Position numbers: made by a program
Part shown: positions 57,201-63,200 of the stretch, in pieces
How positions within the stretch are numbered: position 1 is the stretch's first letter
Layout: the number at the start of each line of letters is the position of its first letter
NCBI RefSeq assembly: GCF_000026545.1
Contig: NC_011601.1
Strand: one strand, 5' to 3'
Source: Escherichia coli O127:H6 str. E2348/69
GTDB taxonomy: Bacteria; Pseudomonadota; Gammaproteobacteria; Enterobacterales; Enterobacteriaceae
DNA: 64,000 nt

Positions 57201-60200
57201 TCGCCTGTAATTCCAATGTTATATTCGTCGGCATCGGTGCATTAGGTCGGCAAAGCCCGATCTTCAAAGATGGCTTTATCAATGAACAGCAACTGGAAGA
57301 GTTAACGATGCTCGGTGGTGTCGGGGAAATTCTTGGGCGCTTTATCGACGCCGACGGCAATGTGGTGGAAAGCCATATTAACCGGATGATCACCAGCTAC
57401 GATATCCGCGAAAGTCAGTGTCCGCGAATTGCCGCCGCCTGCGGTGAAGATAAACGCCCGGCTATTCTCGCGGCGTTAAAAGGCGGATGGATCAACGGCC
57501 TGGTGACCGATGAACACACCGCTCGTTGGTTATTGACTCGCTAAGTCAAGCAACCACATTCAGACTGGGGATCAATTCCGGTGAGATCTCAATGCGCCGC
57601 ACCGTGGTGTCACCGGAATCTATAATCTCAGACACCTTCTCCAGCATGGCTGGGCACATCCTGACGCACCATGTCGATATCATGCCCCAGCAGAGAAACA
57701 AACGGATCCCAGTCAAAACAGCCCATCGGCGGTTGATTGGCCCCCGTCTGTCCCGTTTGCGCCAGCCAGCGCACAACGCCTTCAAGAGAAATGGTTGAGT
57801 TGACAAACAGCCCGTGAAGCGGCATCGCTGAGGAGTGAAAAACGTCTTTCAATAATCCTTCCACTCGTGCGGAAGAGTAGCCGGTAACCAGTTTATGATT
57901 ATCCGGAACAGTTAACCCAATCGCCTGATGAGCATCGACAAAACCGCGTAAACGCTCAGCGGTATTGTTATCACTGATACGCCCGCCGACAAACACCAAC
58001 GCGCCTGATTTGCTGTAACGTTTCTGGCTATTAGCGAAAATGCGTTCGGTCAATAATTTCGCGCCCGTGTAGTTATCAGAAATAATCGACGGTGTCGTGC
58101 CAGTTATCTGGGAACCTATCTACACCGTGTCAAAATTTGCGGTTCAGGCCTTCGTCCACACAACTCGCCGCCAGGTTTCACAATATGGCATCCGCGTTGG
58201 CGCGGTGTTGCCGGGTCCGGTGGTTACCGCTCTGCACGACGACTGGCCGAAAGCCAAAATGGATGAGGCTCTGGCAAACGGCAGCCTGATGCAGCCGATC
58301 GAAGTAGCGGAGTCGGTGCTGTTCATGGTCACCCGTTCAAAAAATGTCACCGTGCGCGATCTGGTGATCCTGCCAAACAGCGTTGATCTGTAAGGGCATT
58401 ACTATGACTGCAACCAAAACTGTCATCGGTGTCGATGTGGGTTCAGGCAGCGTCCGGGCTGGGGCTTTGGATCTCCAGGGCACATTACTTGCTCACGCGG
58501 CACACAAAATCACGACCACCCGACGCAGCGGTAGCCGCGTCGAACAGTCCAGTCAGCAAATCTGGCAGGTCCTTTGTTCAAGCATTCGGGAGGCATTGTC
58601 AAAAGCGGATGTCTCTGCACAGAGTGTCGCGGGTATTGGCTTTGATGCTACCTGCTCTCTGGTGGTGCTGGATAAAAATGGTGAACCGTTGCCGGTCAGC
58701 CCGGAAGGTGAAGCGCAGCAAAACATCATTGTCTGGATGGATCATCGTGCTACCAACCAGGCAAAGCGAATCAATGCCACACATCACCCGGTGCTGAAAT
58801 ACGTCGGCGGGATCATTTCACCGGAAATGGAAACACCGAAGCTCCTGTGGCTTAAAGAAAATATGCCTGAAGTCTTCGATCGTGCTGGATATTTCTTCGA
58901 TCTGGCTGATTTTCTGACCTGGCGCGCCACGGGGGACCTGGCTCGTTCGGCCTGTACCGTGACCTGCAAATGGACGTGGCTGGCTCATGAAAATCGCTGT
59001 GATCCGGACTACTTCCACACCATTGGCCTGACAGCGTTAGCTGATGAAGAATTTGCACGTATCGGTCAGCATATTGCATCGCCAGGAACGTCCTGTGGCA
59101 ATGGCCTCCGTTACCGATCCACTTTTTGTTCCCGGCATCTGGGGACAGTACTATAACGTTATGGTTCCTGGGTTATGATTAATCGAAGGCGGACAAAGTG
59201 CTGCCGGTGCGGCTATCGATCAGTTACTGTCGTTCCATCCTGCGTTTGATGAAGCAAATAAACAAGCTCAGCAGGCCGGACAACCATTACTGGTATGGCT
59301 TGCCGACCAAATCCTGGCAAAAACGGCGCAACCGTCCGATGCCGTGGCGCTGGCAAAAGGTTTACATGTGGTGCCGGAATTTCTCGGTAATCGCGCCCCC
59401 TTCGCCGATCCTCATGCCAGAGCTGTGATTTGCGGGCTGGGTATGGAGTGCGATCAGGATAATTTACTCGTTCTGTATGTTGCCGGGTTATGTGGCATCG
59501 TCTATGGTCTGCGACAAATTCTGATGCGCAATCCGCTCTGGGCGTAGTCAATAAAAATATCGTCATTTGCGGCGGTGCCGGTCAGCACCCACTGGTGCGG
59601 CAAATTCTGGCAGTATGGTCTGCCGGTCATTACCACGAAGTGTAGCGAACCGGTATTATTAGGCTCGGCAATTCTGGGAGCTGTTGCCGGAAAAGTTTCA
59701 CCTTCGGTGAGTGATGCCATGCAGCAATTTACCCATGTGGATACGCAATATTATCCACAACAAAATTACCAGACGCTGCATAAGCAGCGGTATGAGGCTT
59801 ATCAGCAATTACAGGCGCTGGCAAAAAACTGTCGGGAGTAAATAAAAAACCGGGGCTCCTTGAAGTTCCCGGTTTTATTGCCCACAAAATTGAGAATAAA
59901 CTACACCGTAATTAATTTTACCCGTGTCTTCTGCAATGCCAGTTTATCCACCTCAGACACAGCATCATCGGTAATAATAATGTCAATTTTTTCGATTGGC
60001 AGTACCTGATTAAAACCGCGACGATTAAATTTCGATGAATCGAGAACGGCAATCACTTTATTCGCCGCTGTCACCATCGCACCGCTAACGGAATAACCTT
60101 CATTAAAGGTCGTAATACCATTAACCGCATCAATACCATCAGCACCGACAAACATTAAATCGGCATTAATATCCTGCAGGGAACGTTCAGCAATAGATCC

Positions 60201-63200
60201 ATGCATAGATCGCGTTTTATGGCGGACCGTGCCACCGCAGACGACCAGAGTAATGTCTTTATTTTCGGAAAGGGCAAACGCCGCCGGGAGACTGTTGGTA
60301 ATCACCGTGATATTTTTGGCGGTCATTAATCCTTCGGCGATAAGCATTGTGGTACTTCCGCTGTCGAGAATAACGGTCATCCCTTCGTGGATCATTTTGA
60401 CTGCCGCCTGCGCTATTCTGTTTTTCGGCGCGCTGGCGAGCTGAAATCGCTCTTTAAACCCGACTTCCTGGGTCTCGGTTTCGCTATTACCGGACATTAT
60501 TTTCGCCGCACCACCATGAAAGCGCGTAACCACGCCTTTTTGTTCGAGAAAGCGCAAATCGGCACGGATTGTCGCTTCCGAGGCAGCAAATACTCCCGCC
60601 AGATCCTGAACAAGCACGGTTCCCTGTTCATTCACTAATTGGATGATCTTATTCCTTCGCTCGAATGAATTCATCGTCATTTACCCATATTCAATTGTGG
60701 CTAGTGTAAACGAAGGGGGACCATTGGTGAATGATCTGTTTTGCACAATACCGGGCCTGCATCACGCTGGCCCGCGGTTTCAGGGAATGAGCAACACTTT
60801 GCCCGGCATGGCATTACGAGCGATGTCACGCACCGCCTGGGCGAAGATTTCAAAGCTTCCACGGTGAGCGATTAATGGCTCCAGGCTTAACTTACGTTCT
60901 GTCAGCAACCGGCTCGCCGTTTCCCACTCCTGCCCCGGCCAAGGGCTGGAGTAGTTCATCCAACTGCCGATAACCGTCAGCTCTTTACGCAATATTTTGC
61001 CAAACGTTGCAGATGTTAAATGCAGATCCTGATGCAACGTGCCCACCAGCGCCAGTTGGGCATGAGGACCGGCAATCTCTACCGCCAGTTCGACGGTTTG
61101 CGGGACGCCAGCCGTCTCGAGGATAAGCTGATTAAAGCGCAGCTCGCGTAAAACGCCCTGTATTTGCGGCGCGCTCATTTCACGGCTGTTAAATGTTTGC
61201 ATCGCACCGAAAGATTTTGCCAGTGCCAGTTTTTCTGAGCTAATGTCGATAGCCGTCACACTCTTTGCTCCCAGCGCGACAGCGCACTGAATTGCCAGCA
61301 GGCCAATGGTTCCGGCACCAATAATAATAACGTTTTTATTCTCACATCCTTGCGCTAAATGGAACGCATGCAGGCCAACGGTAATCGGTTCAATAAAAGC
61401 GCCATCCTCAATAGGCATATCCGCAGGTAGTGCAAAGACATTGTTTCGCTTAACGACAATATATTCGGCAAATCCACCATCACGCCGTGAGCCAATAAAA
61501 TCATATTTTGCGCACTGGGAATAAAACCCTTTCAGACACTCTGGACAAGTAAAACAGGGTAATAACGGCACACAGGCAACCGCATCGCCGGGGTGTAAAT
61601 CATCAACACCGGATCCCACCGCATCAATATAGCCACTAAATTCATGGCCTAACGTTATTGGATAATAATGTGCACCATTTTTAAATATCCTGGGTAAATC
61701 GGAACCACATAAGCCCGAGCTGGCAATTTTTACCCGCACCTCATCCTGATGTTTAATTTCAGGAATGACGCTTTCTGCTACGCGCACGATACCATCAGTA
61801 TCATTCACCACTGATTTCATAAAAACTCCTGATTGTTAAGGGGGATAACCTCCCCCTCAGGTAAAAATTATTCTGTGAGAACGGCTTTCTCTTGTTTAAT
61901 AAAACCACGCGCTCTACGCCAGGTCATGAAAATACCGGTAAGATAAATTGCGCCGATAACAATGAAACCGGGAATATTTTGCGGGGAGAAAACCTGAATC
62001 AGTAACCAGGTAATGGGAGAACCGCCCTGATCCATTGAAGCCACCATACCCCCGGCTTTTAACGCGCCCGCATTAGCCGCCAGTTGGGTGTGCAAACCAA
62101 TAGTTTGCGTCGCGATCCACAGGGTGATGCTCATAATGATGACACCCGAAATTAAGGTGCGGAACAGATTTCCACGATGCACCGCGACCGCCATCGCCAC
62201 AAAGAAGCCGATGGTGGCAAGGTCGCCAAACGGCAGCACCTGATTACCCGGCACACAAACAGCAATTAAAATGGTGAGTGGAATAAAAATCAGGCTTGCC
62301 GATACCACCGCCGTATGTCCCAGCAGCAACGCCGGATCAAGGCCAATCAGGAACTCCTGACCGCCGAACTTCGCCTGTAAACGACTACGGGCCTGCTTAG
62401 CGATGGGCGTTAAACCATCCATGATGGGTTTAATCACCCGTGGCATCAGCAGCATAACTGCCGCCGTTTTTACCGCCAGCTGCAATACACCTTTGACATC
62501 GTAACCCGCGAGGATGCCGATAATCAGCCCCATCACAAAACCCACGGTGACCGGTTCGCCAAAAGGGCCAAATTTGCGCTGAATATCATCGGCGCTAAAT
62601 TTAATTCGGTTAACGCCTGGGATTTTCTCGATGATAGCATCGACCAGCACCGCAATCGGCCCCATATACGCCGACGTACCGTGCGGAATAGCAATGCCTT
62701 CCAGCTCAAAGAAATTTCGGGTATCGCGGGCAAACCAGTCGCCGAGCTTATAAACAAACGCCGCGTGAATTACCACACCCGCCATCCCTATCATCCATGA
62801 ACCGGTTGCCAGATGCAGCAACGCGCCGGTGAAGGTCATATGCCAGATATTCCAGATATCAACATTTACCACCCGCGTCATACGGGTCAGTAACATCGCC
62901 ACGTTAACCAGAATCGCAATCGGAATCGCCACCAGCGCAATTTGCGACGCCCAGGTCATGGGTGAAGAGCCCGGCCAGCCGACATCGACCACATGCAGAT
63001 TCAGGTCGAAATTTTCCGCCATCGCTTTCGCCGCCGGGCCAATGGAATCCAGCATTAAGCCAATCACAAGGCCAATGCCAACAAAGCCAATCCCGATATG
63101 CAGACCTGCTTTAAAGCAATCGCCTGCCTTCATGCCTAATATTTTAGAAAACATAATGATGACAATCGGCAGCATCACCGTAGGGCCGAGGTCGAGAATA

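What the first reader, a model, noticed from the sequence alone, without database searches (positions are those of the whole stretch)
59901..60680. gatR is uninterrupted, unlike K-12 where it is IS-disrupted
A complete 259-aa DeoR-type repressor ORF lies upstream of gatD on the same strand as gatDCBA. In K-12, as I recall, gatR carries an IS insertion that makes gat expression constitutive. This strain should therefore show repressor-controlled, inducible galactitol utilisation.
Basis: partly seen in the sequence, partly recalled or inferred. Interest (0 to 1): 0.35.

Follow-up and report, generated by a model that had tools for sequence, protein, structure and literature searches.

The report
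Intact galactitol repressor gene gatR
This strain (enteropathogenic E. coli E2348/69) carries the normal, unbroken copy of the galactitol repressor gene gatR, as about nine in ten E. coli genomes do; the K-12 laboratory lineage with its IS3 insertion is the exception, so the finding is correct but ordinary and already known.

Summary
The ORF exists as described: window 59901-60680, minus strand, 259 aa (RefSeq starts it 2 codons later, 257 aa). It has a full DeoR helix-turn-helix and a full DeoR C-terminal sensor domain. The window is 100% identical to E. coli E2348/69 (EPEC O127:H6). One correction: gatR lies 3' (downstream) of gatD in the order gatA-B-C-D-R, not upstream.

K-12 MG1655 does carry IS3E inside gatR, after nucleotide 299 (codon 100, GTC target duplication). 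The matching site here (60376-60378) is unbroken.

The protein differs from the re-joined K-12 protein, and from the identical E. coli HS protein, by one conservative residue (V196I). Of 25 nucleotide differences, 24 are synonymous. It is identical to CFT073 GatR. Published work shows that the HS allele restores gat regulation in MG1655, and that silencing gatR in CFT073 has a strong effect.

In this strain's genome gatYZABCD are all open and the gatY promoter region is conserved. Repressor-controlled, inducible galactitol use is therefore the expected phenotype, though it is untested in E2348/69.

Of 5426 complete E. coli genomes, 4756 hold gatR in one piece; 345 of the 353 with split or partial copies carry the K-12 junction.

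Already known, low interest. The neighbouring hybrid gat/D-arabitol locus with decayed ribitol genes, present in 26 of 5426 genomes, is more unusual.

The parts
59901..60680 (-). gatR, DeoR/GlpR-family repressor of the galactitol (gat) genes. It is 259 aa from the first ATG; RefSeq uses the ATG at 60674 (257 aa).
   Evidence: ORF. Annotated as a DeoR/GlpR regulator in E2348/69. One amino-acid difference from re-joined K-12 GatR and from HS GatR, and identical to CFT073 GatR.
60501..60659 (-). DNA-binding helix-turn-helix domain (aa 8-60)
   Evidence: Pfam PF08220 HTH_DeoR, E=1.3e-16, profile positions 1-53 of 57
59967..60428 (-). DeoR C-terminal sensor (effector-binding and oligomerisation) domain (aa 85-238)
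   Evidence: Pfam PF00455 DeoRC, E=1.8e-51, profile positions 5-159 of 160
60376..60378 (-). GTC triplet matching the target site that IS3E duplicated in K-12 gatR. It is uninterrupted here.
   Evidence: K-12 fragments are 299 and 475 nt, with GTC on both sides of IS3E.
60681..60779 (-). gatD-gatR spacer. It has one SNP among five strains of three phylogroups. It contains a stem-loop without a T-run (about 60752-60774) and a CAAAACAGATCATT word (60730-60743) resembling the repeats upstream of gatY. It may hold the gatR promoter and an autoregulatory site.
   Evidence: Alignment and word match. The fold is not better than shuffles, z=-0.45. The scan found no consensus promoter. The function is inferred only.
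59841..59880 (.). GC-rich hairpin flanked by T-runs on both strands, between the convergent gatR and ribitol-kinase pseudogene. It is the likely bidirectional terminator. Homology with genomes lacking the pentitol genes ends 8 nt after the gatR stop codon.
   Evidence: Terminator scan, sequence, and coverage ending at query position 1008 in genomes without the island.
60780..61820 (-). gatD, galactitol-1-phosphate 5-dehydrogenase, intact
61868..63223 (-). gatC, galactitol PTS IIC, intact (a frameshifted pseudogene in MG1655)
63227..63511 (-). gatB, galactitol PTS IIB, intact
63542..63994 (-). gatA, galactitol PTS IIA, intact. gatZ, gatY and the gatY promoter lie beyond the window end.

Best explanation
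This is the ordinary, functional wild-type gatR gene of E. coli, here in EPEC strain E2348/69.

GatR is a DeoR/GlpR-type repressor. Its N-terminal helix-turn-helix binds operators at the gatY promoter, and its C-terminal sensor domain releases the DNA when an inducer derived from galactitol is present. As a result gatYZABCD (the galactitol PTS, galactitol-1-phosphate dehydrogenase and tagatose-bisphosphate aldolase) is off without galactitol and on with it.

What is shown here:
- the gene and both of its domains are intact;
- it is orthologous and nearly identical to alleles with published repressor function;
- the six structural genes are intact in this strain's genome;
- the IS3E disruption is a feature of the K-12 lineage.

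What is inferred:
- The operators are the two GAAAACAAAYGA direct repeats, 32 bp apart, that overlap and follow the promoter-like hexamers upstream of gatY.
- The nearly invariant gatD-gatR spacer carries gatR's own promoter and possibly an autoregulatory site.
- The nature of the inducer.
- The actual inducible phenotype of E2348/69.
For: - The ORF and its domains are present.
- The window is 100% identical to E2348/69.
- K-12 gatR is split by IS3E after nt 299.
- GatR here differs from K-12 and HS by V196I only, with 24 of 25 nucleotide differences synonymous, which indicates purifying selection.
- It is the same protein as CFT073 GatR, WP_001367074.1.
- Both alleles occur on at least 1000 contigs.
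- The HS allele restores regulation in MG1655, and new IS insertions in gatR then give constitutive mutants (PMC5850726).
- Silencing gatR in CFT073 and LF82 gives a strong signal, whereas MG1655 shows none because its gatR is broken by IS3E.
- gatYZABCD are all open in E2348/69.
- The promoter-proximal gatY upstream region is conserved. The 81-bp length difference from K-12 and HS lies in sequence just 3' of fbaB, upstream of the fbaB terminator-like hairpin, which looks to me like a REP-type repeat.
- The two exact GAAAACAAAYGA repeats sit at L002 3696 and 3728. They overlap the promoter-like hexamers at 3687-3721 and occur nowhere else in 19 kb.
- 4756 of 5426 complete genomes hold gatR in one piece, and 345 of the 353 with split or partial copies carry the K-12 junction.
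Against: - I found no expression or growth data for E2348/69 on galactitol.
- The effect of V196 compared with I196 has not been tested directly, although the V196 protein is the one in CFT073.
- The gatY promoter region has a few SNPs relative to K-12 and HS, two of them inside the first candidate operator repeat.
- The promoter scan found no gatR promoter in the gatD-gatR spacer, so how gatR is transcribed is unresolved.
- The operator assignment is post hoc: the search pattern was derived from the very repeats it then found.
Confidence: 0.9

Rival explanations
1. gatR is intact in sequence, but galactitol regulation in E2348/69 is still abnormal: constitutive, uninducible or Gat-negative. 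The cause would be a cryptic defect such as the V196 substitution, SNPs in the gatY operator or promoter, poor gatR expression, or a missense change in a structural gene.
For: There is one amino-acid difference from the experimentally used HS allele. There are SNPs in the gatY upstream region, including the first repeat. GatY, GatZ, GatB, GatC and GatD carry 4-15 amino-acid differences from HS, and GatA carries one. No phenotype data were found.
Against: The V196 protein is identical to CFT073 GatR, which behaves as an active repressor in CRISPRi screens, and it occurs on at least 1000 contigs. V/I is a conservative change. The SNPs make the two repeats more alike in E2348/69 (11 of 12 positions) than in K-12 (9 of 12). 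All ORFs are open.
Confidence: 0.07
2. Beyond ordinary regulation, the intact gatR is specifically needed in this lineage. The strain also carries the D-arabitol (dal/atl) operon next door, and D-arabitol is toxic to cells with a derepressed galactitol PTS. A working GatR would then be what lets the gat and D-arabitol genes coexist. This adds to the main explanation and does not replace it.
For: An intact dalR-dalD-dalK-dalT lies next to gatR. D-arabitol is used to select against gat-positive (constitutive) MG1655, citing Reiner 1977 (PMC5094792). The gat and pentitol genes are usually alternatives (PMC2806823). All 26 genomes with the gatR-rbtK junction have gatR in one uninterrupted piece.
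Against: 26 of 26 is uninformative, because outside the K-12 lineage nearly all genomes have gatR in one piece. No experiment links GatR to D-arabitol tolerance in a dal-positive strain. Cells that can catabolise D-arabitol may be less sensitive anyway.
Confidence: 0.15
3. The ORF is a chance open frame or a regulator unrelated to gat.
For: None. No NCBIfam equivalog model reaches its cutoff, so automated annotation gives only the generic name 'DeoR/GlpR family regulator'.
Against: Two strong Pfam domains. It occupies the same position and is 96.8% identical in nucleotides (one amino-acid difference) to K-12 gatR. It is conserved in 5109 of 5426 genomes.
Confidence: 0.01

Closest known systems
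GatR of wild-type E. coli (EC3132 of Nobelmann & Lengeler 1996, recalled from memory; E. coli HS, used in PMC5850726; CFT073)
   Same: Same gene in the same position after gatD. It is identical to CFT073 GatR and differs from HS GatR by one residue (V196I). It has the same two-domain DeoR architecture.
   Different: Nothing of substance differs. The sequence 3' of the gene differs, because here a pentitol gene block begins 8 nt after the stop codon in place of the short gatR-yegS spacer.
gatR::IS3E pseudogene of E. coli K-12 (b4498)
   Same: Orthologous sequence, 25 differences in 774 nt. The re-joined K-12 protein differs by V196I only.
   Different: K-12 carries the 1258-bp IS3E after nt 299 with a GTC duplication, leaving an N-terminal HTH fragment and constitutive gat expression. 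MG1655 also has a frameshifted gatC. Here both genes are intact.
AgaR and SrlR (GutR), paralogous DeoR-type sugar-PTS repressors of E. coli
   Same: Same family and length. They are the best NCBIfam matches (AgaR 232.7 bits, SrlR 227.8 bits) across the full length. The mode of action is likely similar: binding to repeated A/T-rich sites at PTS operon promoters.
   Different: Scores are below the equivalog cutoffs (260 and 350), so this protein is neither AgaR nor SrlR. The genomic context is gat, not aga or srl.
GatR of Salmonella Typhimurium
   Same: A repressor of gat promoters whose HTH deletion abolishes repression (PMC7972205).
   Different: It sits in a different operon layout (with tagKTH, PMC9720028). 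It was not compared by sequence here.

Membership tests
DeoR/GlpR family of transcriptional repressors | N-terminal DeoR-type helix-turn-helix domain | tested here: met
   PF08220, E=1.3e-16, aa 8-60, profile positions 1-53 of 57
DeoR/GlpR family of transcriptional repressors | C-terminal DeoRC sensor domain and an overall length of about 250-260 aa | tested here: met
   PF00455, E=1.8e-51, aa 85-238, profile positions 5-159 of 160; 257 or 259 aa
GatR (galactitol operon repressor) orthologue | Position immediately 3' of gatD on the same strand as gatYZABCD | tested here: met
GatR (galactitol operon repressor) orthologue | Near-identity to GatR alleles with published repressor function (HS, CFT073) | tested here: met
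   One residue different from HS and identical to CFT073. Function is reported in PMC5850726 and bioRxiv 10.64898/2026.01.05.697630.
GatR (galactitol operon repressor) orthologue | Uninterrupted reading frame with no IS, frameshift or premature stop | tested here: met
   The K-12 IS3E target site at 60376-60378 is intact.
GatR (galactitol operon repressor) orthologue | Represses gatYZABCD and is released by galactitol or a derivative in this strain | not testable with these tools
   This needs expression measurements. No E2348/69 data were found.
GatR (galactitol operon repressor) orthologue | Defined operator sites at the gatY promoter | tested here: inconclusive
   Two GAAAACAAAYGA repeats overlap the promoter-like hexamers. 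The pattern was derived from those repeats, and no binding data were available.
AgaR / SrlR equivalogs (NCBIfam) | Score at or above the curated equivalog cutoff | tested here: not met
   AgaR 232.7 bits against a cutoff of 260; SrlR 227.8 bits against a cutoff of 350

The most novel reading that the evidence does not exclude
The unusual feature is the locus around gatR, not the intact gene. E2348/69 belongs to a small minority of complete E. coli genomes (26 of 5426) in which the galactitol genes and a pentitol block sit side by side instead of replacing each other. That block comes from a lineage whose dalD is about 17% diverged from the common one. In these hybrids the ribitol transporter gene is absent, and the ribitol genes are decaying: E2348/69 has two deletions and a frameshifted rbtK, and O55:H7 RM12579 has a stop codon in rbtD. 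The D-arabitol operon stays intact.

The most novel reading not excluded is this. Because D-arabitol is toxic through a derepressed galactitol PTS, coexistence of the two is conditional on a working GatR. The classical 'genotypic exclusion' of the gat and rtl-atl genes would then reflect this metabolic incompatibility.
Probability: 0.15. Interest if true: 0.35.

Novelty: already known. Interest (0 to 1): 0.08.

Why it matters
The finding matters little in itself. It has long been published that K-12's gatR is broken by IS3E, and that natural isolates carry an intact, functional gatR giving inducible galactitol use (Nobelmann & Lengeler 1996, from memory).

The practical point is a reminder that K-12's constitutive gat expression is a laboratory-lineage peculiarity. 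Gut-colonisation results that hinge on gat, such as selection of gat-negative mutants in mice, should not be carried over to strains such as E2348/69 that keep the repressor.

The neighbouring hybrid gat/D-arabitol locus could be a small natural test case for the old 'genotypic exclusion' observation.

Tried and rejected
- Original paper: I tried to read the gat paper (Nobelmann & Lengeler 1996, PMC178577), but it is not held. Statements from it are marked as memory.
- Phenotype data: I searched for E2348/69 galactitol or dulcitol phenotype data and found nothing usable. The one paper mentioning both terms (PMC9720028) only says that E2348/69 lacks the separate B2 D-tagatose cluster.
- GatR-specific family model: NCBIfam has none that passes. 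The best hits, AgaR and SrlR, fall below their cutoffs.
- gatR promoter: the scan found no consensus match in the gatD-gatR spacer, and the spacer RNA folds no better than shuffles (z=-0.45). The stem-loop after gatD has no T-run, so whether gatR is read through from gatD or has its own weak promoter stays open.
- The 81-bp shorter fbaB-gatY spacer: I considered that it might remove the gat promoter. The alignment shows the indel lies just 3' of fbaB, upstream of the fbaB terminator-like hairpin, and the promoter-proximal 110 bp are conserved. I rejected this idea.
- Rare damaged allele: I considered that the V196 allele might be one. I rejected this because both alleles occur on at least 1000 contigs and V196 is the CFT073 protein.
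- Limits of the genome counts: IS1-sized insertions are merged by the search tool into one 'place' (for example Nico21(DE3)), and frameshifts are not detected. The figure of 4756 genomes with gatR 'in one piece' is therefore an upper bound for intact genes.
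Full report
**What is there**

The window is the reverse strand of the E. coli E2348/69 (EPEC O127:H6) chromosome. A 1200-base query around the finding is 100% identical to three E2348/69 or O127:H6 assemblies, and window 54001-64000 matches the RefSeq record exactly.

The ORF listing gives a 259-aa ORF at 59901-60680 on the minus strand. Upstream of it on the same strand are gatA (63994-63542), gatB, gatC and gatD (61820-60780). gatZ, gatY and the gatY promoter lie just outside the window.

The protein has a DeoR helix-turn-helix (aa 8-60, E=1.3e-16) and a DeoR C-terminal sensor domain (aa 85-238, E=1.8e-51), both essentially full length. RefSeq starts the gene two codons later (257 aa), and both lengths circulate in databases. 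NCBIfam has no model that names it: AgaR and SrlR are the nearest but fall below their cutoffs. This is why automated annotation calls it only a 'DeoR/GlpR family regulator'.

**The K-12 comparison**

In MG1655, gatR (b4498) is annotated as two fragments of 299 and 475 nt separated by IS3E (insE5/insF5). The flanks show a GTC target duplication. The matching GTC in the window (60376-60378) is uninterrupted.

Joining the two K-12 fragments gives a 257-aa protein that differs from the window protein at one position (V196 here, I196 in K-12). There are 25 nucleotide differences, 24 of them synonymous. That pattern is expected for a gene under purifying selection.

E. coli HS has the K-12-type protein (I196), and CFT073 has exactly the E2348/69 protein (WP_001367074.1 in both).

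**Functional evidence from the literature**

- Sousa et al. 2017 (PMC5850726) state that MG1655 expresses gat constitutively because of the IS in gatR. They replaced the pseudogene with the HS allele and obtained a regulated operon. They then saw new IS insertions in gatR produce constitutive mutants in mice.
- A 2026 preprint (10.64898/2026.01.05.697630) reports a strong CRISPRi signal for gatR in the B2 strains CFT073 and LF82. It found none in MG1655, 'broken due to an insertion of IS3E'.

Since CFT073 GatR is identical to the E2348/69 protein, this is indirect functional evidence for this exact sequence. I found no galactitol phenotype or expression data for E2348/69 itself.

**The rest of the system**

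In the E2348/69 genome gatY, Z, A, B, C and D are all open reading frames, with 1-15 amino-acid differences from HS. MG1655, in contrast, has a frameshifted gatC.

The fbaB-gatY spacer is 81 bp shorter than in K-12 and HS. The indel lies just after fbaB, upstream of the fbaB terminator-like hairpin, in sequence that looks to me like a REP-type repeat. The 110 bp next to gatY are conserved.

In that stretch two exact GAAAACAAAYGA direct repeats lie 32 bp apart. One overlaps the promoter-like hexamers and one lies just downstream of them. They occur nowhere else in 19 kb. They are reasonable operator candidates for a DeoR-type repressor, but the pattern was derived from them, so this is inference.

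The 105-nt stretch between the gatD stop codon and the RefSeq gatR start has a single SNP among K-12, HS, O55:H7, CFT073 and E2348/69, while gatR itself differs at 11-25 sites. This suggests a constrained regulatory role. It also contains a related word, CAAAACAGATCATT. However, the promoter scan found nothing there, and the RNA fold is not better than shuffles. A GC-rich hairpin with T-runs on both sides follows gatR (59841-59880).

**How common is the intact gene**

| Category among 5426 complete E. coli genomes | Count |
|---|---|
| Any gatR match | 5109 |
| gatR in one place covering at least 80% of the CDS | 4756 |
| Split or partial gatR | 353 |
| Genomes with the exact K-12 gatR/IS3E junction | 345 |

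The sampled examples with the K-12 junction are laboratory K-12 derivatives. Outside the K-12 lineage, therefore, an uninterrupted gatR is nearly universal. These counts do not detect frameshifts, and they merge IS1-sized insertions such as the one in Nico21(DE3), so they are upper bounds for intact genes.

**Verdict on the finding**

The fact is already known: it is the wild-type state, described when the gat genes were first sequenced (Nobelmann & Lengeler 1996, from memory; that paper is not held) and restated in recent papers. Interest is low.

**What is more unusual nearby**

Homology to K-12-type genomes stops 8 nt after the gatR stop codon. Between gatR and yegS there is a pentitol gene block. 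It holds an intact D-arabitol operon (dalR 56603-57544; dalD 55028-56395; dalK/xylB 53551-55014; dalT; a HAD hydrolase) together with decayed ribitol genes:

- rbtK, frameshifted with an internal stop;
- rbtD, lacking its 5' end;
- rbtR, lacking its 5' end.

Against O55:H7 RM12579, E2348/69 shows a deletion of about 152 nt inside rbtK. It also shows a deletion of about 1084 nt that removes the rbtD and rbtR 5' ends and their divergent promoter region.

Only 26 of 5426 genomes have the gatR-rbtK junction. That matches the number of genomes (26) whose dalD is at least 95% identical to this one. Another 221 genomes carry a dalD that is only about 82.7% identical. In the one such genome I examined (LR-50), the pentitol block includes rbtT and replaces gatYZABCDR entirely between fbaB and yegS.

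This is the 'genotypic exclusion' of Link & Reiner 1983, as cited by Zhou et al. 2010. They say only 13% of strains have both and note the same arrangement in O55:H7 (PMC2806823). In neither hybrid genome I looked at is rbtT present.

D-arabitol is toxic to cells with a constitutive galactitol PTS (Reiner 1977, as used in PMC5094792). It is therefore conceivable that an intact GatR is what permits gat and dal to coexist. That idea is speculative and untested.

Noticed in passing
window 51519-59841 (between gatR and yegS): A pentitol gene block begins 8 nt after the gatR stop codon. The D-arabitol operon (dalR, dalD, dalK/xylB, dalT, HAD hydrolase) is intact. The ribitol genes are decayed: rbtK pseudogene at 58404-59841 (+), rbtD remnant at 58085-58393 (+), rbtR remnant at 57546-58095 (-), and no rbtT. 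Compared with O55:H7 RM12579 there are deletions of about 152 nt and about 1084 nt.
   Followed up: partly
window 59760-59960 (gatR-rbtK junction) and 55028-56395 (dalD); loci L005, L006: Only 26 of 5426 complete E. coli genomes have gat and the pentitol genes side by side. Another 221 genomes carry a dalD only about 82.7% identical. In the one of these I examined (LR-50), that block, which includes rbtT, replaces gatYZABCDR completely between fbaB and yegS. There therefore seem to be two diverged island lineages with different relationships to gat, which is the classical 'genotypic exclusion'.
   Followed up: partly
window 23678-28553: The diguanylate cyclase gene dgcE (yegE) is split by an IS4-like ISEc13 element (IS at about 24261-25634). 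RefSeq annotates the two halves as partial pseudogenes. In E. coli HS, dgcE is also a pseudogene, but through an internal stop.
   Followed up: no
window 34837-36210: A second, identical ISEc13 transposase gene (same protein accession) lies between mdtA and an Ibs toxin gene. Only one Ibs toxin gene is annotated here, against two in HS. yegJ, present between yegI and pphC in HS, is not annotated in E2348/69.
   Followed up: no
outside the window: L002 3526-3751 (fbaB-gatY spacer of E2348/69); L007 27248-28184 (CFT073): The spacer upstream of the gat promoter varies between strains. E2348/69 lacks 81 bp that K-12 and HS have just after fbaB. CFT073 has an IS200C copy between fbaB and gatY. The 110 bp next to gatY stay conserved.
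   Followed up: partly
window 60674-60680: There are two in-frame ATG codons (MTMNSF...). Annotations disagree between 259 aa and 257 aa, and both forms are abundant in databases. The GGG of a weak Shine-Dalgarno-like motif is better spaced for the first ATG, judged by eye from the sequence. This is not resolved.
   Followed up: no
window 1-3042: The low-coordinate end of the window runs into the O127 O-antigen cluster (O90/O127-family flippase wzx), next to the colanic acid genes. According to PMC2806823, this whole his-O-antigen-gat region is a known recombination hot region.
   Followed up: no
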